Below, in pieces: positions 1 through 11,076 of a stretch of DNA of 11,076 nt; positions within the stretch are counted from its first letter, which is position 1; every line of letters starts with the position of its first letter. The notes under the pieces are model-generated. The model was not told the origin of the DNA and did no database searches. It saw only the letters and a program-made list of their open reading frames with translations. Source of the DNA: an uncultured archaeon (GTDB lineage Archaea > Asgardarchaeota > Heimdallarchaeia > Heimdallarchaeales > Heimdallarchaeaceae); assembly GCA_964534625.1 (NCBI GenBank), contig CAZHRF010000004.1:116941-128016 (forward strand). Direction: 5' to 3'. Both the position numbers and the translations under genes were made by a program.

Positions 1-2
1 TG

Positions 3-1223
3 ACATATATGTTCCGAGAGGCTTATTCCTTTAACCAACCTATAGGTGCATGGGACACGAGCCAAGTAAACTATTTGAATCATATGTTTCTTAAAGCTTA
101 TTCCTTCAACCAACCTATAGGTGCATGGGACACGAGCCAAGTAACCGATATGCGATATATGTTTTGGAGAGCTTATTCCTTCAACCAACCTATAGGTACA
201 TGGGATACGAGCCAAGTAACAAATATGAGATATATGCTTTCTGAGGCTGATTCTTTTGATCAAGATCTAGGCTCTTGGGATGTCAGTAGTGTTACAGATT
301 TTGATCATAGTTTCGATAATTGTTCTTTGTCAATTGGAAATTATGATAGTCTATTAATAGGCTGGTCCAAATTAACGTTACAATCAGGATTATCATTCGA
401 AGTTCCTGGTGTTCAGTATAGTGGTGCTGCAAAAGCATCCAGACAGATTATTATCTCTCTATATGAGTGGATAATTAATGACGGTGGTTTGTATGAAAAT
501 ACTGAAGATCCTTTGATTACCAATGTCTATCATACACCATCTTCTCCTACTGGTCAAGACAATATTCTTATCAGTTCAACTGTTACAGATAATGTTGCAG
601 TAGGTCATGTTTCACTATATTATCGCATTAATGGTGGAGACTGGCAACCTATTACGATGAATGACAATGGCCATTTCTATACTGCTACCATTGGTCCTTT
701 TGTTGAAGGTTCCACTATTGATTACTATATCTATGCAGAAGACACCAGTAAAAATAATGTTATCAGTGAAACAAAAACCCTTACAGTCATTGATACTCAA
801 CCACCCGTCATCTCTAATATCACTCATTCACCCATTTTACCAGATCAAAACCAGTTAATAACTATTGGTGCTAATATTACCGATAATATCGAATTAGAGA
901 CAGTTACACTATATTATCGTATTAATGATGATATCTGGAAATTAATCCCAATGGGTTCAACAGGTGTTTTTTATAGTACACTAATTGGCCCATTTACAGA
1001 CAATGGTTTCCTTGAGTATTATATTTATGCTGAAGATAGTAGTGGTAATAGTGTAGAAAGTGATATTAAACGTATAACCATCCAAGATAATTATGCTTTA
1101 GGTACTTGGAATTTTGATTATATCTCAACAGCTATAGGTGTAACAGCAGGAATAGTTGTTGTTGGATCAATTGTAGGTATTATCACTTTGGTAAGGAGTG
1201 GTGCAAAGGGTAAGAAAAAATGA
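3..1223 (+). CDS. DUF285/BspA-like repeat surface protein with two Ig-like repeats and a C-terminal membrane anchor (5'-partial)
   Basis: 25-aa repeats [17 protein letters not shown] typical of DUF285. Two related ~96-aa beta-rich domains (P.I.N..H.P...V.LYYRIN...W...IGPF....YYIYAED.S.N). Hydrophobic C-terminal helix followed by KGKKK. The frame is open from the window edge. Confidence 0.88.
21..218 (+). repeat. 75-bp tandem coding repeats (DUF285 units)
   Basis: Near-identical 48-bp block gcttattcctt(t/c)aaccaacctataggt(g/a)catggga(c/t)acgagccaagta at 21, 96 and 171, separated by 27-bp variable segments. Confidence 0.92.
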
Positions 1224-3881: not shown

Positions 3882-4032
3882 AATAGAATAGTTTCGGGAT
3901 TAAATAAAGTTTGCTTCGTGTAAATCAGGATGGCAATTTTAACATCGTTAAGTGCAACCCTTTATAATCTTGGAAAAAATGAAAACAGAAAAGCCTACAA
4001 ATAAAACAAAAATATTATCATACTTATGTAAG

Positions 4033-4212
4033 GTAAGTGTTTCATCCCCTATTTAGATTAGACCAATAAAGAAACGGAGGCACATTTATGTGAAGAAAAT
4101 AAACAATTTCAAATAAACCTCGGAATTTATGAAATATATCACCAACAGTTCTCCCTTCAACTGACGCCTAGGGGTGAAAAACGTACTATGTAAGTGTTTC
4201 ATCCCCTATTTA
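4033..4212. repeat. Direct and inverted repeat cluster (MITE-like element or recombination site)
   Basis: gtaagtgtttcatcccctattta occurs exactly at 4033-4055 and 4190-4212. An imperfect inverted copy taggggtgaaaaacgtac lies at 4169-4186. Confidence 0.75.
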
Positions 4213-4467
4213 CATTAAACTAGGAACAAAACGGAGAAACGGACTGTAAGGAAAATAAATCCGTATTGGAACCATTGAAAAGTAGGGGTTGTTTAGACTA
4301 GTTTTAACCTTAAGGTTTAAACGGGTATACCTTCTTGGATAGTCTCCTATACAAGTACTTCCCACTTTATCGGCAGTTGAAAAGATAAAAAGTTCTAATG
4401 GAAAAAGCAAAAAGTGTAATCGGTGTTGAATTGACACATAATGTTTTTATAACGTGAAAATAAAAAA

Positions 4468-4897
4468 AAAGAGAATAACTCAGAAAGGCAAAATTTTCTA
4501 GTTTAAGTAGACGAACAGTAAACACACTCAAATAAGAAATCAAATGGGTCTATACACATGTATTCACCCAGCCACTGACTGATGAAATGAAGGATATATT
4601 AAAGAGAGAACAATTAACCCCTATAGGAACGACTATACCAACCCAAGTGTTCAAGAAGGTTATACAAACAATAACTGATCCATCTTTAGGTGTGGCACTC
4701 CAGCTAGTATATGTAACAGGCATACGCCCACATGAACTATTATCATCCATCTGAAAGGGACAGACCTTCTAGCATGGGCACAAAAAGGCAGAAAAGATGA
4801 AAGGAAAACTATGAACCCTATGAACCCATCTATAAACGAAGAAGAACAGCAAGAGAAGGGGACAGAGTTACAAAGGTTGTTATATCGTTCTTCCTAA
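4468..4897 (+). pseudogene. Tyrosine recombinase (Xer/Int family) fragment including the catalytic-Arg box I
   Basis: Reads SLSRRTVNTLK*EIKWVYTHVF...LGVALQLVYVTGIRPHELLS, then after a frameshift HLKGTDLL, i.e. L..TG.R..EL..L...D. Lesions: 1-nt deletion near 4495, TAA at 4533-4535, frameshift near 4747. No HxxR/Tyr box II. Confidence 0.82.
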
Positions 4898-4943: not shown

Positions 4944-7576
4944 CTATTGGTTAATAGTACAGCTGGAGTTCTTCTTTTTTATCTCTTTCAGTATCTCTTT
5001 TGCTTGCTGGTTCAAGGGATTACTTCTTACATCTAACCAGGTTAATTTTTCTAGTTGAATCAAACTCTCTGGGAGCGAGGTTAACTGATTATCTCTTAAA
5101 TACAGTTTCTGGAGGTTTTTCAGCTCATTTATACTTGCTGGGAGCGCGAGTAACTGGTTATTGCTTAAATACAGTTCCTGGAGGTTCTCGAGCCAGGTTA
5201 TACTTATTGGGAGCGAGTGTAACTGATTTGAGCTTAAATGTAGTGTTTGGAGGTTTTTGAGCCCACTTATACTCTCCGGGAGAAAGAGTAAATTATTCCA
5301 ACTTAAATTCAACTCGTGAAGGTTCTCGAGTTGACTTATATTTGTTGGGAGTGAGATTAACTTATTACCGCCTAAACTTAATGTCTGGAGGTTCTGGGGG
5401 CCACTAAAACTCTCTGGAAAAAAGGTTAACTGGTTCCCATTTAAATTCAGTGTCTGGAGGTTCTTCAGCTCACTTATACTCGGTGGCAGCGAGGTCAGCC
5501 CTTTCTCATATAATCCTAACCCTATTATGGTATTGTCTTGGATGACAACTCCAAACGCGTTTCTGTACATTTTTCCTACTACTGGTATTGTTCTCCCTAT
5601 TTGTTGTTCCAATTCTTCTAAGATGAGAATCTCTTCTTCCTTTACTGTACGCTTCATTACTATATCCTTCAAATCAGCATCTAGTTGTAGATTTAGTGTT
5701 TTTTTGCTGTTCAGTTCTTGTAGCATGTTTAGTGTTGTTCTGTTATATTGATCTAGTGGATTATCCCCTAAATTCAGGTACTGGAGGTTCTTGAGTTCAC
5801 TTATACTCGGTGGCAGCGAGGTCAGCCCTTTCCCATATAATCCTAGTTCTGTTATACTATTGTCTTGGATGACAACTCCAAATGTGTTTCTGTACATTTT
5901 TCCTACTACTGGTATTGTTCTCCCTATTTGTTGTTCTAATTCTTCTAAGATGAGAATCTCTTCTTCCTTTACTGTACGCTTCATTACTATATCCTTCAAA
6001 TCAGCATCTAGTTGTAGATTTAGTGTTTTTTTGCTGTTCAGTTCTTGTAGCATGTTTAGTGTTGTTCTGTTATATTGATCTAGTGGATTGTCTCTTAAAT
6101 TCAGTTGCTGGAGGCTAGTAAGCCTCGTTATACTCGCGGGGAGAGAGTGTAACTGGTTTTCTGATAAATTCAAGTACTGGAGGTTCTTCAGCCTAGTTAT
6201 ACTCGCGGGGAGAGAGTTCAACTGGTTATTGCTTAAATACAGTTTCTGGAGGCTAGTAAGCCTAGTTATACTCGCTGGGAGAGAGTTCAACTGGTTATTG
6301 CTTAAATACAGGTACTGGAGGTTCTTAAGCCTAGTTATACTCGCGGGGAGAGAGGTTAACTGATTTTTACCTAAATTCAGGTACTGGAGGTTCTCGAGCC
6401 CGGTCAAACTCTCTGGGAGAGAATTCAACTTGTTCCATCTTAAATCTAGTGTCTGGAGGTTCTGGAGCCTCGTTATACTCGCTGGGAGAGAGGTTAACTT
6501 ATTTTCTCCTAGATACAAGTCTCGCAAGTTCTCGAGCCTTGTTATACTCTTTGGGAGAGAGGTTAACCTTTTATTATATAGTCCTAGTCCTATTATAGTA
6601 TTGCCTTGGATGACAACTCCAAGGTATTATGGTTTATTTTTTTTACTACTGGTATTACGCCTGTTTCTTTTTCTAATTCTACTAAGCCTATAATCTCTTC
6701 TTCCTTTAGTGTATGCTTGATTTCTGCGTCCTTAAAATTATAATCTAATTGTAGGTCTAGTGTTGGTTGATTGTTCAGTTCTTTTAAGACTTTGAGTGTT
6801 TTTGCGTCAGAACATAGTGGATTTGCCCGTAGATCCAACTCTCGGAGGTTCTCCAGCTTGGTTATACTCGCTGGCAGAGAACGTAACTGATTCCAACGTA
6901 AATCCAGTTTCTGGAGGTTCTTCAGCCCACTTATACTCGCTGGGAGAGAGCGTAACTTGTTACATGATAAATCCAACTTTTGAAGGTTCTTGAGCCCACT
7001 TATACTCGCTGGGAGAGAGCGTAACTTGTTACATGATAAATCCAACTTTTGAAGGTTCTTGAGCCCACTTATACTCGCTGGGAGAGAGCGTAACTGATTT
7101 TCGTACAGAAATAGTTTCTGGAGGTTCTTCAGCCCACTTATACTCGCTGGGAGAGAGCGTAACTGATTTTCGTACAGAAATAGTTTCTGGAGGTTCTTCA
7201 GCCCACTTATACTCGCTGGGAGAGAGCGTAACTCGTTATCGCCTAAATCCAGGTACTGGAGGTTCTTAAGCCTAGTTATACTCGCTGGGAGAGAGTTGAA
7301 CCGATTTTTTCTTAAATTCAACTCTTGAAGGTTCTTAAGCCCACTTATACTCGCTGGGAGAGAGGTTAACCATCTATTATATAATCCTAGTCCTGTTATA
7401 CTATTGTCTTGGATGACAACTCCAAATGTATTATATTTTATCTCTCCTATTATTGGTATGGTTCTCCATACTTGATGTTCTAGTACTTCTAGGATCTCTT
7501 TTTCTTTATTAAACAGTGGTGTTCCCTTGAAAGAACTGATCTTTTCTGCCTCTTTCCTTTCTCTGTTTGATGGCAT
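4944..7576 (-). CDS. Multi-module leucine-rich repeat protein (~877 aa if repaired), split by a 1-nt frameshift at ~6621
   Basis: ORFs 6593..7576 and 4944..6527 join if one base is restored. At 6619-6623 the sequence is ccaag, whereas the three paralogous modules have ccaaa (NTFGVVIQDN). Four cap+LRR modules with 8, 7, 1 and 7 repeats of 23 aa (L.SLP.SI..L.NLQ.L.L..N). Confidence 0.88.
5442..6089 (-). repeat. 327-bp (109-codon) tandem duplication inside the LRR gene
   Basis: 5442-5762 vs 5769-6089. PLDQYNRTTLNML...GRTIPVVGKMYRN is repeated exactly at protein level. Confidence 0.93.
6905..7234 (-). repeat. 69-bp tandem LRR units including two exactly duplicated pairs
   Basis: KLFLYENQLRSLPASISGLKNLQ x2 and KLDLSCNKLRSLPASISGLKNLQ x2, essentially identical in DNA within each pair. 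Confidence 0.93.
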
Positions 7577-7601
7577 TTTCTTCTCTGCTTTTTTATCTTC
7601 A

Positions 7602-7613
7602 CCTTATAAAAAG
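7602..7613 (-). promoter_or_regulatory. Putative TATA box of the LRR gene
   Basis: Minus-strand TTTTTATAA about 30 bp upstream of the ATG at 7576, the usual spacing for near-leaderless archaeal transcripts. Confidence 0.4.
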
Positions 7614-7898
7614 GTTATGTCATCAATAGAAGCCTTATGCTTTGCTTTTTTTCACGTATCATTTGGCTAGTTTTTTAACTTTAAAATGAGCATTTAGATA
7701 TTATAGGTAAATTTTAACTTAATTATCCTTTCTCTCTATACTTGATAAGAAAGGTCTATCATGTTTAGGTTTTCCTCTCATAGGCTTGAGATGGTCTTTT
7801 TTTATCCCTCTCAGCGTATAAAAACTATAAGGCTAGTATAACCATAGGTTATTCATTTTCAAGGTATTTATAAATGAGTATTTTCACCCATAACATAC

Positions 7899-8749
7899 AT
7901 GCAATATCAATATAGACTTCATGGAGAAGAACCTAATTCTGTAGTATTACTTCACGGAGGCCCTGGTGCCTGGGGAGAGATATTTTCTCTCGCAGATCTA
8001 CTAAAAGATAGATATGGACTAATCGAGCCATTTCAAATGCAACCTTCGTTAGATGGGCAACTAGAAGAGTTACATGGTATTATTAAAGAGAACGCTTTCT
8101 CTCCAGTAGCCCATAGGTTTTTAATGGGGTGCTTGGTTGGCTTATTCATTCTCTGCACGATATTCTAGTGAAAAATTAGTTTCTAAACTCATTCTAATAG
8201 GTAGTGGCTCATACACAAAGACTATTATAATGAACTAGTTATAAATCCAAGAGAACGAACGAATACAGCCCAATTAAGACTTTCTGAACAATTATTTACT
8301 GATATTAACAATCCCCTAATCAATGACAAAGAAAGTATTATTCTTTCATTAGGAAAATTATATCATTATATCGACCAATATGACCCCGAACCTTTTGAAT
8401 CGGCAGAACTTGTGGATCTTCCCTTTTCAAGCTACCAAGTTGATCGAAGCACATTTTTTAATCAATGTTTGAATGAAGTTATATAAATGCGCAAATCTGG
8501 AGAATTATTAGACTATGCTAAAAAAATCACTATACCTGTTGTGGCAATTCATGAGTTCTTTTGGGTACTTTTGGGTACGTGACCCATGGTGTGTATGATC
8601 CTCATCCTGCAGATGGTGTTATTAAACCTCTAAGAGAGACTATTGCTAATTTTCAATGGCATTTGTTAAAAAAATGTGGTCACAAACCTTGGAAGGAAAA
8701 ACAAGCGAAAGAAGATTTTTATCACGTTCTTAAGAGTGTAATTAACTGA
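7899..8749 (+). pseudogene. Alpha/beta hydrolase pseudogene
   Basis: VLLHGGPG; after a frameshift IGF*WGAWLA (G-x-S-x-G with the Ser codon now TAA, 8122-8124); KLILIGS; a second frameshift near 8218; TAA at 8484; ITIPVVAIH [35-bp insert] GVYDPHP; CGHKPW.E. Confidence 0.88.
8550..8588. other. 31-bp insertion flanked by a CATG duplication
   Basis: catg-agttcttttgggtacttttgggtacgtgacc-catg. Removing 35 bp restores VVAIHGVYDPHP in frame. Confidence 0.75.
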
Positions 8750-8927
8750 ACTCCCCCACCCAAAGGTAGATATTTTACTTTTCTACGAAGGTTGCCCATA
8801 ACTATAATTCTTTTATCCTCTTTTCAGGCTTCGTTATTATTTTAAATATTGATTTTCTGATTTATTGAATGAAGAAACTTCTTCTGCCATTGTTTACCTT
8901 TGCTTGTTAAACTAATATTTTTGACTA

Positions 8928-9434
8928 TTACTGATTAAAATGAGTTTCAAAGGTTTTTTTGAGTTCATCAATTGAGCTAGGGGTTGGGTATATTTGCACT
9001 CCTTGATCTTTCATTATACTTGTGCTTAGTCTTTTAAAATGATAATCATCTACTAAAATTACTTTGCAATCTTTTTGAGTTGCTGTTGCAAGATGTAAAG
9101 CATCTGAACCATAGAGATTATATTTCCAAATGAACTTTTTAGATAGTGATATGTTATCATCAGTAACTTTTACTAATTCAATCATATTGGTATTAATCAA
9201 TTTCATTAAATCTTTCTCTATGAAAAATTGCAATTGCTTTGCTTCTTCTTTTGTAATTTCATTTTGATTCTCCCGTTTCTTTATCCCTCTTGTAATCTCA
9301 ATATTGCTCCACACAGAACTAATACACAAGATATTTTCATCTCTTATACAATATTCAACTGTTTCACTTCCTTTTTCTTCATAGAATAAGTTCCAAAGAG
9401 CAGAGCTTTCAAGATAACATTTAACTTTCTTCAT
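8928..9434 (-). CDS. vapC: PIN-domain ribonuclease toxin (VapC-like)
   Basis: YLESSAL...EE.GS, S.....EI, L.GSDALHLATA, ILVDD. Overlaps the upstream antitoxin by 14 bp. Confidence 0.88.
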   Translation of the reverse strand: MKKVKCYLESSALWNLFYEEKGSETVEYCIRDENILCISSVWSNIEITRGIKKRENQNEITKEEAKQLQFFIEKDLMKLINTNMIELVKVTDDNISLSKKFIWKYNLYGSDALHLATATQKDCKVILVDDYHFKRLSTSIMKDQGVQIYPTPSSIDELKKTFETHFNQ

Positions 9435-9654
9435 GATGCAAATCCTCTAGTCCTTTTAGTTTTTTGTCTTTTTTAGTGAAATAATTTCTTACCTCACTTC
9501 TTGTTTTCCAAGATACATCCTTCTGTTCTTCTTGCATTAATTCATAAATACCTGCTTTCAATGCTTCACTTATTGAAGAATACTTCCCCTTCGCAACAAG
9601 TCCTTCCAAAAATTTTTGCTCTTCTTCTGTTAGTTTAACTGAAGTAATTGCCAT
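9421..9654 (-). CDS. Ribbon-helix-helix antitoxin (CopG/ParD-like, VapB role)
   Basis: TSVKLTEE...LE.LV..GKYSS.SEALKAGI.EL; lies directly upstream of the PIN gene. Confidence 0.85.
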   Translation of the reverse strand: MAITSVKLTEEEQKFLEGLVAKGKYSSISEALKAGIYELMQEEQKDVSWKTRSEVRNYFTKKDKKLKGLEDLHHEES

Positions 9655-9739
9655 TTTTCCACACCATGTATTTTATTTGTACCAAATATTATTCTATATG
9701 TATTAATTCTTTTTGTTTTCTTTCTTAGTACATATGTAC

Positions 9740-9916
9740 TTATGCAACCATCAAATCCCATAGATTAATATTAGCTTTCTTTGCTGCATCTTCCAACGAA
9801 TTCCCTTCTTCGTAATATTCAAGAAAACAGTTAACTTTCTTCATGATGTAACTCCTCAAGTCCTTTTAGCTTTTTTTCTTTTTTAGTGAAATATTTTCTT
9901 ATCTCGCTTCTTGTTT
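9740..9916 (-). pseudogene. Relic second copy of the antitoxin/toxin junction fused to a UPF0175-like fragment
   Basis: 9818-9916 repeats 9408-9506 (offset 410, about 10 mismatches in 99 nt). The duplicated toxin start MKKVNCFLE runs into YYEEGNSLEDAAKKANINLWDLMVA*, similar to the UPF0175 motif G..S...AA..A....W. Confidence 0.7.
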
Positions 9917-9960
9917 CAATTTTGGGGTAGTTCCTTGTTTTGCATAGTTTGTTACTGCAG

Positions 9961-10484
9961 TATACTAGCTGGAGTGCCACACCTAAAGATGGATCAGCTA
10001 GTGTTCATTGTATGACCTTCTTGAACACCTGAGTTGGTATAGTCGTTCCTATAGGGGTTAATTGTTCTCTCTTTAATATATCCTTCATTTCATCAGTCAG
10101 TGGCTGGGTGAATACATGTGTATAGACCCATTTGATTTCTTGTTTGAGTGTGTTTACTGTTCGTCTACTTAAACTAGAAAAATTTTGCCTTTCTGAGTTA
10201 TTCTCTTTCTGTCGGTGAAAAAACTTCCGTATTTCATCTGTTGTTACATCTTGTATTTGTCCCAGTCAGACGTTCCATAAAGATATTTTCTTTTGAATAG
10301 TTGATGCAGCCAGTCCATGTTTTCTGGCTGTCCACCTAATCTTATCTAATAACACTCTTTGTATCTCCTGTTCAATGCCAGAGGTGATTCGTACGTCCGT
10401 TTCATTGGTATATGTCATATATAGCCTTTTTTCTTCCTCTTTTTCATTCGCTGTATTTTTTCGATGTGTAACACGTATTCTCAT
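9961..10484 (-). pseudogene. Tyrosine recombinase N-terminal/core-binding region, truncated just before the catalytic Arg
   Basis: The 72-aa ORF continues in frame past TGA (10266-10268): GLAASTIQKKISLWNV*LGQIQDVTTDEIRKFF...SLSRRTVNTLKQEIKWVY...KKVIQ*TLADPSLGVALQLVY. This has the SAM-like pattern GL...TI / VT..EI..F / LS..T.N and is homologous to the 4468 copy that carries TGIRPHELL. Confidence 0.8.
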
Positions 10485-10637
10485 ATATCTTCTATGTCTA
10501 AGAGAAAAGGGAGAGTCTGCACGAAAAAACAGGACTGGTCATACTTTGATGAAAACTATGGGGATCTATTGGTTATAAACTTTAAATAATTTAGAAAAAA
10601 GGTAGTTGAATATTGAACTCTGTTAGCCTCTTAAGAA

Positions 10638-11076
10638 TTATTTATAGACGGAACACCCGTTCTTTTTTAACACTGCCAAGATCTTCTGTGCCTTCCTATC
10701 TAATTCATTCCCTTCAATCGATAATTTCTTTAGTTTTGGTAGCCTGGTCAAACTCTCTGGGAGAGAGCGTAACTGGTTAACTGCTAAAATCAACTCTTGA
10801 AGGTTCTTGAGCCCACTCAAACTCTCTGGGAGAGAGCGTAACTGGTTTTTGTACAGATTCAACACTTGCAAGTTCTCGAGCATGGTTATACTCTCTGGGA
10901 CAGAGGTTAACTGATTTTTTCCTAAATTCAAGTACTGGAGGTTCTCGAGCCTCGTTATACTCTCTGGGAGAGAGTTGAATTCATTTCCACCTAAATCCAG
11001 TACCTGGAGGTTTATAAGCCCAGTTATACTCTCTGGGAGAGAGCGTAACTGGTTTTCGTACAGATTCAACACTTGC
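10638..11076 (-). CDS. Leucine-rich repeat protein, C-terminal part (5' end beyond the window)
   Basis: 23-aa repeats LRSLPESI..L.NLQ.L.L..N and C-cap N.L...A..IL..LKK, as in the 4944 gene. Confidence 0.9.
   Translation of the reverse strand, partial: QVLNLYENQLRSLPESITGLINLQVLDLGGNEFNSLPESITRLENLQYLNLGKNQLTSVPESITMLENLQVLNLYKNQLRSLPESLSGLKNLQELILAVNQLRSLPESLTRLPKLKKLSIEGNELDRKAQKILAVLKKNGCSVYK

What the first reader, a model, noticed from the sequence alone, without database searches (positions are those of the whole stretch)
4944..11076. LRR genes built from exchangeable 69-bp cassettes with constant and hypervariable halves, each gene ending beside a recombinase relic: possible receptor-diversification system
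Seen: most units in modules 1-2 keep the DNA core TCTCTCCC(A/C)GCGAGTATAA...AACCT(C/T)CA(G/A), conserved even at synonymous sites. The codons for xLxLxxN vary strongly (ELNLRKN, YLDLGDN, KLFLYEN, KLDLSCN, KLDLRWN, YLYLSNN). Both LRR 3' ends are within ~50-155 bp of a tyrosine-recombinase remnant, and several TA modules are nearby. Known: xLxLxxN forms the ligand-binding concave face, and lamprey VLRs diversify by copying LRR cassettes through short homologies. Inference: a prokaryotic LRR repertoire reshuffled by recombination or gene conversion at the constant cores, perhaps for defence or recognition. No signal peptide or effector domain is evident.
Basis: partly seen in the sequence, partly recalled or inferred. 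Interest (0 to 1): 0.72.

Follow-up and report, generated by a model that had tools for sequence, protein, structure and literature searches.

The report
Recombining LRR repeats in Asgard archaeon
An Asgard-type archaeon carries a small, partly broken family of leucine-rich-repeat genes whose 69-base units share a nearly identical scaffold half but have very different binding-face halves; ordinary recombination between repeats plus selection explains this better than a dedicated diversification machine.

Summary
The sequence observation holds. The window has 28 in-register 69-bp LRR units. The stated DNA core is exact in 12 of them, against 0 expected. It uses codons that are rare in this genome. 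Synonymous divergence is 0.06-0.18 in codons 1-6 of three of four arrays, and 0.69-0.93 in the beta-strand half. Eight control LRR arrays show no such gradient. The two halves of a unit have separate histories.

The "system" reading is not supported.
- ORFs 6593-7576 and 4944-6527 are one four-module gene split by a 1-nt frameshift.
- The third gene is cut by the contig end.
- The two "recombinase relics" are overlapping pieces of one dead gene, forming a 244/248-bp inverted repeat. Its recombinase identity is only weakly indicated.
- I found no reverse transcriptase, no intact integrase, no silent cassette store and no LRR-integrase linkage in relatives.

Best reading: concerted evolution by homologous recombination at the scaffold half, with distinct concave-face segments retained. 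Fungal NLR repeats behave this way. Earlier notes of this scan reached the same verdict for LRR families on other DNA. Variation within the population could not be resolved.

The parts
6593..7576 (-). 5' ORF of the multi-module LRR gene (327 aa). It holds a hydrophilic N-terminus, an N-cap (…NTFGVVIQDNSITGLGLY…), 8 LRR units (6812-7363), a C-cap and a linker. It ends inside the next N-cap.
   Evidence: AlphaFold2 model: solenoid over residues 51-277, with pLDDT about 80-95 over most of the repeats.
6617..6625 (-). Frameshift site. One base is missing from the Phe codon of the N-cap motif NTFGVVIQ. This splits one roughly 890-codon reading frame into ORFs 6593-7576 and 4944-6626.
   Evidence: Three-frame translation. 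Contigs from 4 of 4 runs cover 6591-6935 with 0 differences, and no indel row lies near this site.
4944..6626 (-). 3' part of the same gene (open frame of 560 codons). It holds module 2 (7 units, 6078-6560), module 3 (1 unit, 5751-5819) and module 4 (7 units, 5010-5492), each with its own caps.
5442..6095 (-). Tandem duplication of 327 bp (C-cap, linker, N-cap and one LRR unit), with 18 differences between the copies. It created the one-unit module 3.
10638..11075 (-). 3' end of a second LRR gene (5 complete units plus a C-cap). Its 5' part is missing because the contig ends here.
   Evidence: Contigs continue beyond 11065 into a core of the 6908-type.
4468..4751 (+). Relic arm A. It is the repeat arm (4468-4711) plus 40 unique bases, and reads …ALQLVYVTGIRPHELLSSI*. 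There is one in-frame TAA upstream. It resembles the junction between the N-terminal and catalytic domains of a recombinase.
9961..10484 (-). Relic arm B. It is the repeat arm (9961-10208) plus the N-terminal part of the same gene (up to 10484), with two in-frame stops. At 9960 it breaks off and joins a duplicated 3' end of the RHH gene.
9818..9916 (-). Duplicated 3' end of the RHH antitoxin gene (90% identical to 9408-9506). It is a rearrangement scar next to relic arm B.
8928..9654 (-). PIN toxin and RHH antitoxin pair, lying inside the segment bracketed by the inverted repeat.

Best explanation
This is a small, lineage-specific family of cytoplasmic LRR proteins. Each protein is a string of self-contained LRR domains (N-cap, up to 8 repeats of 23 residues, C-cap). 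The family sits in a decaying, rearranged island with toxin-antitoxin pairs, small dispersed repeats and pseudogenes.

The 69-bp units evolve by ordinary homologous recombination: unequal crossing-over and short gene-conversion tracts that start in the conserved scaffold half. This keeps the convex-side half (SLPxSIxxLxNLQ) nearly identical in DNA within and between arrays, and probably enriches it in G/C-ending codons. The roughly 24-bp beta-strand segment (xLxLxxN, the concave binding face) escapes homogenisation and stays very different from unit to unit, most likely because selection keeps distinct binding-face residues.

Recombination break points between the two halves have made mosaic units and moved some variable segments between modules and genes.

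The 'recombinase relics' are two overlapping pieces of one dead, probably tyrosine-recombinase-like gene. It once lay between two LRR genes and was split by an inversion that duplicated 244-248 bp. It plays no present role.

Shown here: the unit anatomy, the codon-level gradient, the mosaic pairs, the frameshift, and the repeat structure of the relic.
Inferred: gene conversion as the homogenising force, selection on the variable half, and the inversion history.
For: 1. Gradient within the unit.
- Synonymous divergence (pS) in scaffold codons 1-6 is 0.06, 0.18, 0.07 and 0.40 in the four arrays. In scaffold codons 15-22 it is 0.93, 0.83, 0.87 and 0.69.
- Eight control LRR arrays (2 from this genome, 6 from relatives) have pS 0.60-0.78 in codons 1-6. 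One of them (L007) has an equally conserved amino-acid scaffold.

2. Whole-unit duplication alone cannot give this. Adjacent identical units exist (7157=7088, 7019=6950), but other pairs have 0/36 core differences with 11/30 variable-half differences (Fisher p=5e-5).

3. The opposite mosaics also exist. Unit 6216 versus 5148 has 2/30 variable differences and 11/36 core differences (p=0.027). Unit 6354 versus 10905, across genes, has 2/30 and 4/36. Unit 10767 versus the C24 unit has 3/30 and 7/36. This argues against hypermutation aimed only at the variable half.

4. Decoupling of the halves.
- Mantel r=0.17 between core and variable distances.
- Variable halves are not structured by module: the nearest neighbour is in the same module for 5.5 of 28 units, against 5.9 for shuffled labels.
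- Cores are weakly structured by module: 10.9 against 5.9.
- PHI p=0.0002 to 0.04 over four window sizes.

5. Core pS between modules (0.08-0.44) tracks the pS of the N-caps of the same modules (0.07-0.49). So the caps and cores share a recent history that the variable halves lack.

6. GC3 is 0.47-0.55 in the units, 0.27-0.34 in the linkers and caps of the same gene, and 0.236 genome-wide. This fits a process acting on the repeats, such as GC-biased conversion, better than import of the whole gene.

7. No machinery was found.
- No PF00589 integrase match in the genome.
- No PF00078 reverse transcriptase.
- No extra copies of any variable segment outside this family.
- A DNA profile of the unit finds only the window, one contig-end unit on C24, one fragment on C4 and 5 weak hits on C38 (35 hits in all).

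8. The model places the helix on the constant A-S-I-S-G stretch and the strand on the variable E-L-N stretch. The best fold matches are ordinary 23-residue LRR proteins: Leptospira LIC12759 (42% identity, rmsd 2.3) and SHOC2.

9. The relic.
- Arm B carries the N-terminal part up to …ALQLVY.
- Arm A carries the 244/248-bp overlap and continues …VTGIRPHELLSSI.
Against: 1. Everything rests on one short-read metagenome assembly. The order and copy number of units with long identical stretches may be wrong, and one array breaks the contig.
2. No orthologue, sister strain or long read was available, so no exchange event was seen directly.
3. Some synonymous sites are fixed in every unit (AAC 24/24, AGT 27/27, ATA 23/23), while the wobble base of Leu-9 inside the core varies freely. 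That looks more like site-specific constraint on DNA or RNA than like tract-wise conversion.
4. pN/pS at the concave x positions is 0.89, not above 1. Positive selection is therefore not shown, and the sites are near saturation.
5. PHI can be inflated by dependence of sites within a codon.
6. Leu-15 is 75% G-ending. The variable half is therefore not simply old neutral sequence at the genome's codon equilibrium.
7. The gene is frameshifted, so present-day selection on it is doubtful.
Confidence: 0.68

Rival explanations
1. A dedicated receptor-diversification system. Here the constant 69-bp cores are recombination sites, and a site-specific recombinase, or another dedicated enzyme acting in trans, swaps variable cassettes between LRR genes to generate a repertoire for defence or recognition.
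For: - Constant cores with very different variable halves, and mosaic units shared across genes.
- A recombinase-like relic next to two LRR 3' ends.
- An island context with TA modules.
- Relatives of the N-cap LRR type fused to NACHT or TIR, that is, immune-type architectures.
Against: - The relic is a single dead gene with stops, truncated before nearly all of the catalytic domain.
- It has no convincing relative in 60 related genomes.
- The genome has no PF00589 match.
- The units are direct repeats, so site-specific recombination between them would delete units, not shuffle them.
- There is no cassette store.
- 0 of 7 LRR loci in 5 relatives have an integrase within 10 kb.
- The pattern is absent from 8 other LRR arrays of this genome and its relatives.
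- The main gene is frameshifted.
Confidence: 0.06
2. Targeted hypermutation of the 24-bp beta-strand segment. A diversity-generating retroelement, a deaminase or error-prone repair would act on recently duplicated units. The constant half would then simply reflect recent duplication.
For: - Caps and cores differ by pS of only 0.07-0.16 between the first two modules, while the variable halves differ by pS 0.88.
- No positional orthology of variable halves between modules.
Against: - No reverse transcriptase in the assembly.
- The variation involves all four bases, including T/C at first positions of Leu codons, and is not adenine-specific.
- At least five unit pairs have a variable half less diverged than their core.
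- No template repeat was found.
Confidence: 0.06
3. The constant core is held by selection on the nucleic acid itself, for example an RNA or DNA motif, or a conserved cluster of rare codons that paces translation at each repeat. Recombination would not be the cause.
For: - Particular synonymous sites are fixed in all units across three genes (AAC 24/24, AGT 27/27, ATA 23/23), while the Leu-9 wobble base between them is free.
- Rare codons CTC and GCG are kept.
Against: - No Rfam match in the window.
- The fixed codons are a mix of rare and common ones.
- The exact core occurs in no other LRR array. There are only single 19-23-nt chance matches in 4 genome loci and 7 metagenome loci.
- The mosaic pairs still require recombination.
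Confidence: 0.1
4. An assembly artefact. Short-read assembly across near-identical cores would have produced chimeric or mis-ordered units, so the mosaicism and the adjacent identical units would not be real.
For: - The contig ends inside an LRR array.
- Independent contigs of the four runs are broken into pieces of 267-437 bp across the arrays.
- Identical stretches exceed 100 bp at the duplicated units.
Against: - Mis-joining can only happen where sequences are identical. It can change unit order or number, but it cannot create the codon-level gradient or link a divergent core to a given variable half.
- The pieces that contigs of 4 of 4 runs do cover agree with the window, with 0-1 differences.
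Confidence: 0.08

Closest known systems
Repeats with high internal conservation in fungal NLR/STAND proteins, for example the WD repeats of het-d/het-e (HNWD family) in Podospora. Sources: PMC1805685 (abstract and outline read) and PMC4986451 (passages read).
   Same: - Repeat units are kept alike in DNA within and between paralogous genes by concerted evolution.
- A few positions on the binding surface are hypervariable.
- Units are exchanged within and between family members.
- Pseudogenes occur in the family.
- Relatives of the present LRR type can carry NACHT or TIR domains.
   Different: - The repeats here are LRR; the fungal survey found none of this type (passage seen).
- The organism is an archaeon.
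- Only the scaffold half of the unit is homogenised. Mean amino-acid identity between units is 0.51-0.74, below the 85% used to define the fungal class.
- This gene has no NOD domain.
- Repeat-number polymorphism and positive selection are not shown here.
Clustered plant NBS-LRR / R genes that evolve by unequal crossing-over and gene conversion, with variable solvent-exposed xxLxLxx residues. This is recalled knowledge. Papers such as PMC3113787 and PMC6032283 were seen only in a search listing.
   Same: - LRR fold.
- Variation is concentrated on the beta-strand face.
- There are recombination footprints among repeats and paralogues.
   Different: - Exchange in plants is mostly between whole genes or long tracts. 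Here the periodic 45/24-bp pattern lies inside each unit.
- No NB-ARC domain is present.
- The context is a prokaryotic genome.
TAL effector repeats of Xanthomonas
   Same: The units are nearly identical in DNA apart from a short hypervariable specificity segment, and the arrays evolve by recombination among repeats.
   Different: - TALE units are 102 bp and vary in two codons only, with essentially no synonymous divergence.
- Here 8 codons vary, including synonymous sites.
- The fold and the target differ (DNA for TALE).
Programmed diversification systems: lamprey VLR cassette assembly, shufflons (Rci recombinase) and diversity-generating retroelements. All are recalled. PMC10907252 on DGRs in multicellular bacteria was seen only in a search listing.
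   Same: - VLRs are also LRR proteins assembled from units through short homologies.
- All of these systems give variable binding faces on a constant scaffold.
   Different: - There is no incomplete acceptor gene with a flanking silent cassette store.
- No intact recombinase is present, and the units are direct rather than inverted repeats.
- No reverse transcriptase or template repeat is present.
Typical 23-residue LRR proteins: Leptospira LIC12759, LIC11098 and LIC10831, SHOC2, LRRC8 and Rsu1 (fold search), together with LRR cargo genes of Heimdall-group mobile elements (HeimM2 in PMC8813620; passages read).
   Same: - The fold and repeat class match: 42% identity and rmsd 2.3 over 213 columns to 4u09_B.
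- An LRR gene as cargo of a mobile or variable region in Heimdall-group archaea is in print.
- Asgard LRR proteins are numerous and of unknown function (10.64898/2026.10.28.762692; passages read).
   Different: - The beads-on-a-string build, with several capped LRR domains and a distinctive N-cap, is uncommon. Only 54 cluster representatives score E<=0.001, and the best is 42% identical.
- No close homologue of this gene was found. The best is 53% identical over 57% of the query.

Membership tests
Leucine-rich repeat proteins, typical 23-residue class (Pfam LRR_8 / LRR_4) | A profile match above the curated cut-off | tested here: met
   LRR_8 scores 185.6, 184.1 and 103 bits against a cut-off of 27 for the three ORFs.
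Leucine-rich repeat proteins, typical 23-residue class (Pfam LRR_8 / LRR_4) | A solenoid with one beta-strand (LxxLxLxxN) and one short helix per unit, plus caps | tested here: met
   The AlphaFold2 model of 6593-7576 has alternating strand and helix over residues 51-277 at pLDDT about 80-95 over most of the repeats. It also has an N-cap hairpin and a C-cap helix. Foldseek matches Leptospira LRR proteins and SHOC2 at E 1e-16 to 1e-13.
Concerted-evolution repeat families (fungal NLR type with high internal conservation) | Repeat units alike in DNA within and between paralogous genes, beyond what protein constraint requires | tested here: met
   pS is 0.06-0.18 in core codons within three arrays and 0.08-0.16 between them. 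It is 0.60-0.78 in 8 control arrays.
Concerted-evolution repeat families (fungal NLR type with high internal conservation) | More than 85% identity between whole repeats over at least 100 residues (criterion quoted in PMC4986451) | tested here: not met
   Mean amino-acid identity between units is 0.74, 0.68, 0.51 and 0.58 in the four arrays.
Concerted-evolution repeat families (fungal NLR type with high internal conservation) | Hypervariable positions on the binding surface under positive selection | tested here: inconclusive
   The variable codons map to the beta-strand face. However, pN/pS there is 0.89, with sites near saturation.
Concerted-evolution repeat families (fungal NLR type with high internal conservation) | Repeat-number polymorphism among individuals | not testable with these tools
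   Only contigs of 4 runs from one study hold the locus. They break at the cores.
VLR-type somatic cassette assembly | An incomplete acceptor gene flanked by a store of silent LRR cassettes | tested here: not met
   The unit DNA profile finds nothing outside the genes except one fragment on C4, one contig-end unit and 5 weak hits in another LRR gene. No extra copy of any variable segment was found.
VLR-type somatic cassette assembly | An AID/APOBEC-like cytidine deaminase | not tested
   No search for deaminase families was run.
Shufflon / invertible-segment systems | An intact site-specific recombinase beside the segments | tested here: not met
   Both relic copies carry in-frame stops and lack nearly all of the catalytic domain. 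The genome has no PF00589 match, at 89.8% completeness.
Shufflon / invertible-segment systems | Segments separated by short inverted recombination sites | tested here: not met
   All 28 units are direct repeats on one strand. The only inverted repeat is the 244/248-bp relic pair, which brackets whole genes.
Diversity-generating retroelements | A reverse transcriptase plus a template repeat whose adenines are the varied sites | tested here: not met
   No PF00078 match in the genome. No second copy of the variable segments. The substitutions are not restricted to one base.
Tyrosine recombinases (for the relic) | A match to the Phage_integrase catalytic domain, or to an N-terminal SAM-like domain profile | tested here: not met
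   No Pfam family at E<=10 apart from unrelated weak hits. PHROG integrase scores E=0.17 over residues 36-70. Nothing was found in the PDB.
Tyrosine recombinases (for the relic) | The catalytic residues R-K-H-R-H/W-Y | tested here: inconclusive
   Only a stretch that looks like the first-arginine motif (…LVYVTGIRPHEL…) is present, and the frame ends 9 codons later. Calling it that motif rests on recall and on language-model look-alikes: 0.91, with 118 shared features, which is below the level usual for true family members.

The most novel reading that the evidence does not exclude
In this Heimdall-group lineage, the 24-bp concave-face segments of a capped, multi-module LRR family behave as exchangeable cassettes. 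Short-patch homologous recombination nucleated at GC-rich constant cores moves them between units, modules and genes, while selection keeps the cassettes distinct. This would be an archaeal, recombinase-independent counterpart of the repeat-shuffling repertoire of fungal NLRs. It would serve an NLR-like recognition function, since relatives carry NACHT or TIR domains. It would also carry a visible footprint of GC-biased gene conversion in an archaeon.
Probability: 0.2. Interest if true: 0.6.

Novelty: new member of a known kind. Interest (0 to 1): 0.3.

Why it matters
Asgard archaea are unusually rich in LRR proteins of unknown function (10.64898/2026.10.28.762692, passages read). This locus gives a clean, quantifiable example of how one such family evolves.

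- The scaffold half of each repeat is kept almost identical in DNA.
- The binding-face half differs from unit to unit.
- The two halves have separate histories.

This is the evolutionary style of recognition repertoires in fungi and plants, so the family may be, or may have been, a recognition module. The confinement of high GC3 to the repeated units also hints at GC-biased conversion in an archaeon, which has been little studied.

The finding does not add a new mechanism. There is no sign of programmed diversification, and the main gene is broken.

Tried and rejected
1. Population variation. One look-up found 4 DNA runs of one study, and no RNA holder was listed. Laying their contigs gave pieces of 221-1433 bp that stop at the cores and at the inverted-repeat arms. 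Unit order, unit number and the orientation of the 5.2-kb segment therefore could not be read.
- The 'joints' 11065>6908, 10794>6183 and 10976>7257, and the clustered variants at 10882-10885, are best read as units from the unassembled part of the third gene that share at least 31 nt with window units. I do not read them as rearrangements.
- The letters at 4533 and 10142 are the two repeat arms laid on each other.

2. Relatives by DNA. The 19-nt core pattern gave only single 19-23-nt matches in 4 genome loci and 7 metagenome loci. None holds an LRR unit. Records of the window's own genome may be left out of those scans.

3. Relatives by protein.
- The best homologue of ORF 6593-7576 is 53% identical over 57% of the query. 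No near-identical variant turned up among 357 hits at E<=1e-20.
- P0142 and P0055 are unrelated generic LRR proteins.

4. Relic identity. Pfam, the longer-protein search (314 candidates, none at E<=0.01) and PDB sequences gave nothing. PHROGs gave integrase at E=0.17. In related genomes, 2 of 60 had matches, at E 0.0015 and 0.005.

5. DGR. Rejected, because there is no reverse transcriptase.

6. RNA element or tRNA in the window. None found.

7. CRISPR-like reading of the 69-bp period. Rejected, because the arrays are strong LRR coding sequence.

8. Whole-gene import from a GC-richer donor as the cause of the rare codons. This is weakened because linkers and caps of the same gene have GC3 of 0.27-0.34, against 0.47-0.55 in the units.

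9. Technical. A fuzzy-regex scan for donor copies timed out and was redone with blastn-short.

Full report
WHERE THE WINDOW LIES
The window is the last 11,076 bases of contig C4 of a 3.37-Mb, 120-contig assembly that is 89.8% complete. Overall GC is 32%. Earlier notes of this scan call the genome a Heimdall-group Asgard MAG. In my own calls the only taxon names were 'Promethearchaeota archaeon' on two of the better LRR homologues, and that name is the Asgard phylum in the NCBI taxonomy. The four public runs that hold the locus are labelled microbial mat metagenome and belong to one study.

CHECK OF THE OBSERVATION
Three minus-strand ORFs (4944-6527, 6593-7576, 10638-11075) are strong LRR proteins, with LRR_8 E-values of 1.2e-55, 3.3e-55 and 6.9e-30 and no other family above its cut-off. 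Tandem Repeats Finder reports period-69 arrays, plus 138- and 207-bp higher orders.

In register SLPxSIxxLxNLQxLxLxxNxLx I extracted 28 units: 8, then 7+1+7, then 5. One out-of-register regex match was dropped.

No match occurred in 200 shuffles. All quoted variable motifs are there.

The core uses codons that are rare in this genome and keeps them:
- CTC in 23 of 26 Leu (7% of Leu codons genome-wide)
- GCG in 13 of 14 Ala (8%)
- AAG in 12 of 14 Lys (20%)
- AAC in 24 of 24 Asn (24%)
- CAG in 17 of 23 Gln (18%)

The toxin-antitoxin-like neighbours are real.

1. ORFs 6593-7576 and 4944-6527 are one gene. The first ORF ends inside an N-cap motif (…KKINHNT|LELSSKAIL*). The same motif continues in another frame (…YLGVVIQGNTIIGLGLYNKRLTSLP…). 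One base is missing from the Phe codon of NTFGVVIQ near 6620-6622. Independently built contigs of 4 of 4 runs cover 6591-6935 without a difference, and no indel is listed near the site. The frameshift is therefore in the reads.

2. The restored frame would encode four self-contained LRR domains in a row. Each has an N-cap (…EEEILxLEELExxxGxxIPVV…NTFGVVIQDNxIxxLGLY…LTSLP) and a C-cap (NPLxxxxxxxLxxLxELN…). They hold 8, 7, 1 and 7 repeats. The one-repeat module comes from a 327-bp tandem duplication with 18 differences between copies.

3. The third gene is cut by the contig end. Contig C24 ends (44120-44397) with the 5' end of an LRR gene of the same kind. The last 60 nt of its N-cap are identical to those of module 2.

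4. An AlphaFold2 model of the 327-aa ORF gives a confident solenoid over residues 51-277. The short helix lies on the constant A-S-I-S-G stretch and the beta-strand on the variable E-L-N stretch. The best fold matches are ordinary 23-residue LRR proteins: Leptospira LIC12759 (42% identity, rmsd 2.3 over 213 columns), SHOC2, LRRC8, Rsu1 and a Roco LRR domain.

IS THE CONSTANT/VARIABLE PATTERN MORE THAN PROTEIN CONSTRAINT?
Yes. Nei-Gojobori synonymous divergence was computed over all unit pairs.

pS | array 1 (6593-7576) | module 2 | third gene | module 4
scaffold codons 1,2,3,5,6 | 0.06 | 0.18 | 0.07 | 0.40
scaffold codons 15,17,20,22 | 0.93 | 0.83 | 0.87 | 0.69

Eight control arrays were taken by the same regex: two from this genome (C38, and C4 near 41 kb) and six from relatives. 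Their pS is 0.60-0.78 in codons 1-6 and 0.65-1.02 in codons 15-22. One control (L007) has an equally conserved amino-acid scaffold (SLPESLGxLQNLQ) but pS of 0.60. Protein constraint alone therefore does not give the pattern.

Over all 28 units, pN/pS at the concave x positions is 0.89 and at the scaffold positions 0.14. The x positions are unconstrained or diversified, but an excess over 1 is not shown.

HISTORIES OF THE TWO HALVES
- Distances in the core (codons 1-11) and in the variable segment (codons 13-20) are uncorrelated (Mantel r=0.17, p=0.07).
- Cores are weakly structured by module. The nearest neighbour is in the same module for 10.9 of 28 units, against 5.9 with shuffled labels (maximum 14.2).
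- Variable segments are not structured by module: 5.5 against 5.9.
- A PHI test on 26 distinct units and 49 informative sites gives p=0.0002, 0.0006, 0.002 and 0.037 for windows of 3, 5, 8 and 12 sites. Dependence of sites within a codon may inflate the small windows.
- Pairs with an identical core and a different variable half exist. Unit 7157 versus 6881 has 0/36 and 11/30 differences (Fisher p=5e-5).
- Pairs of the opposite kind also exist. Unit 6216 versus 5148, in different modules, has 11/36 and 2/30 (p=0.027). Unit 6354 versus 10905, in different genes, has 4/36 and 2/30. Unit 10767 versus the C24 unit has 7/36 and 3/30.
- Two adjacent pairs are fully identical (7157=7088 and 7019=6950), which points to recent single-unit duplication.
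- Synonymous divergence of the N-caps between modules (0.07-0.49) tracks that of the cores between the same modules (0.08-0.44). The variable halves are at 0.75-0.90 throughout.

COMPOSITION
GC3 is 0.47-0.55 in the LRR units, 0.27-0.34 in the linkers and caps of the same gene, 0.15-0.24 in neighbouring genes and 0.236 genome-wide. Inside the unit it is 0.57 for codons 1-13 and 0.42 for codons 14-23. Control arrays have 0.16-0.41. The G/C-ending rare codons are therefore a property of the repeated units, not of the whole gene.

IS THERE MACHINERY OR A CASSETTE STORE?
- A DNA profile of the unit finds 35 places in the genome. Of these, 28 are the window units. The others are one fragment at C4:114626-114672, one unit at the end of C24, and five weak hits in the C38 LRR gene.
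- No variable segment has a further copy (at least 24 of 30 nt) outside this family.
- The assembly has no match to reverse transcriptase PF00078 and none to Phage_integrase PF00589. The integrase control rings in 14 of 14 reference genomes. The assembly is about 90% complete, so absence is not proven.
- The core pattern is found in no other LRR array in the two public collections. There are only single chance matches: 4 and 7 loci, each with a 19-23-nt hit.

THE 'RECOMBINASE RELICS'
ORF 4587-4754 has a second copy at window 9954-10088 (C4:126894-127028) on the other strand. The two form an inverted repeat, 4468-4711 and 9961-10208, that is 96% identical and 5.2 kb apart.

Read through their stops:
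- Arm B carries an N-terminal part from 10484 and ends at …ALQLVY, where it is joined to a duplicated 3' end of the RHH gene.
- Arm A starts within the overlap and continues …ALQLVYVTGIRPHELLSSI*, then decays.

They are therefore two overlapping pieces of one gene. The simplest history, which is an inference, is an inversion of the segment that now holds the frameshifted LRR gene, a split hydrolase gene and the PIN-RHH pair, with duplication of the break-point region. Before it, a single gene lay between the two LRR genes. This explains why each LRR 3' end now has a 'relic' beside it, in non-equivalent orientations.

Its identity as a tyrosine recombinase is plausible but weak:
- No Pfam hit at E<=10.
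- PHROG integrase at E=0.17.
- Nothing in PDB sequences.
- No longer homologue.
- Language-model look-alikes are dominated by integrase fragments (score 0.91, 118 shared features).
- Among 60 related genomes, only two weak matches (E 0.0015 and 0.005).

LINKAGE ELSEWHERE
The N-cap/linker segment finds 54 cluster representatives at E<=0.001 in 1.84 billion proteins. The best is 42% identical, and several hold 2-4 copies of the cap. I scanned 13 of those 54 against Pfam. Twelve are LRR proteins, one of which also has NACHT (27.8 bits, cut-off 26.7) and one TIR_2 (30.5, cut-off 28). One (P0015) is an unrelated surface protein.

In 60 related genomes the cap is found in 8. In five of these I searched for integrases. 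Of their 7 LRR loci, none has an integrase within 10 kb. The nearest is 16 kb away on G034:C203.

WHAT IT MOST LIKELY IS
It is a lineage-specific family of cytoplasmic, multi-domain LRR proteins in a rearranged, decaying island. Its units evolve by unequal crossing-over and short gene-conversion tracts that start in the conserved scaffold half.

Homogenisation keeps cores and caps young and, I infer, G/C-rich. The 24-bp beta-strand segments escape it, most simply because conversions that overwrite distinct binding-face residues are removed by selection. The wobble bases interleaved with those residues are then shielded as well.

This mode is described for the WD, ANK and TPR repeats of fungal NLR proteins: concerted evolution within and between genes, with a few hypervariable surface positions (PMC1805685, abstract; PMC4986451, passages). 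From recall, it is also described for plant R-gene LRRs and TALE repeats.

It fails the fungal 85% whole-repeat criterion. It also lacks a NOD domain in this gene, although relatives carry NACHT or TIR.

An LRR gene as cargo of a Heimdall-group mobile element is in print (PMC8813620, passages). A preprint notes the abundance and unknown function of Asgard LRR proteins (10.64898/2026.10.28.762692, passages). I searched for, but did not find, a paper on codon-level concerted evolution of LRR units in archaea. The four searches were made, so this is weak evidence of absence.

Earlier notes of this scan describe recombining LRR gene families on other DNA, in phages and in a small bacterium, with the same 'ordinary recombination' verdict. 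I did not re-test them.

WHAT REMAINS OPEN
- Everything comes from one short-read assembly.
- The order and number of units with long identical stretches may be wrong.
- No orthologue or long read shows an exchange event.
- Some invariant synonymous sites (AAC 24/24, AGT 27/27, ATA 23/23) sit next to a freely varying Leu-9 wobble base. This could mean a constraint on the nucleic acid itself.
- The main gene is broken, so the family may be on its way out.

A programmed system is not excluded by direct observation, but none of its expected parts was found.

Noticed in passing
window 4029-4258: A dispersed repeat of about 155 bp, here as one full copy and one partial tandem copy. It has matches of 71-93% identity on about 17 other contigs of the genome (C47, C31, C23, C50, C100, C9, C21 and others). 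Contig depth there is several times that of the flanks. It has no Rfam match. It may be a MITE-like element or an unknown small RNA.
   Followed up: partly
window 7899-8168 and 8561-8749, with a repeat at 8549-8590: An alpha/beta-hydrolase-like gene (…VVLLHGGPG… and …CGHKPW…) appears split into two ORFs about 390 bp apart. A 37-41-bp element sits at the break and recurs at 10 or more places in the genome at 89-100% identity. It contains the tandem 10-mer CTTTTGGGTA. Neither ORF gave a Pfam hit at E<=0.01.
   Followed up: partly
G000:C4:114516-114769 (about 2.3 kb before the window start): More scars of the same family. There is a C-terminal LRR-cap fragment 76% identical to window 10628-10743, an inverted fragment of an LRR unit, and a weak piece of the recombinase-like relic (E=0.31).
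   Followed up: partly
G000:C24:44103-44397 and window 4436-4478: Contig C24 ends with the 5' end of an LRR gene of this family. The 43 nt just upstream of its start codon are 95% identical to window 4436-4478, which now lies beside relic arm A. So a promoter-proximal piece of an LRR gene seems to have been moved in the rearrangement.
   Followed up: partly
whole genome G000, and G021: No match to the Phage_integrase family PF00589 in this genome (89.8% complete) or in one genome of the same family. Three genomes of another family of the same order and one of the same class have 2-6 matches each, and 14 of 14 control genomes ring.
   Followed up: no
window 4944-7576 and 10638-11075: GC3 of the LRR units (0.47-0.55) is about twice that of the linkers and caps of the same gene (0.27-0.34) and of the genome (0.236). 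This may be a footprint of GC-biased gene conversion in an archaeon.
   Followed up: partly
proteins P0001, P0035, P0002, P0009 (relatives of the N-cap): The N-cap of this LRR type recurs 2-4 times per protein in multi-module LRR proteins from other sources. Some are fused to NACHT or TIR domains. Two (P0002, P0009) share a similar N-terminal region of about 110 residues that Pfam did not name.
   Followed up: partly
window 1-281 and G000:C4:116350-116940: A DUF285 (BspA-like) surface protein with 75-bp tandem units and a C-terminal membrane anchor. A run of N in the contig interrupts the gene just before the window start.
   Followed up: no
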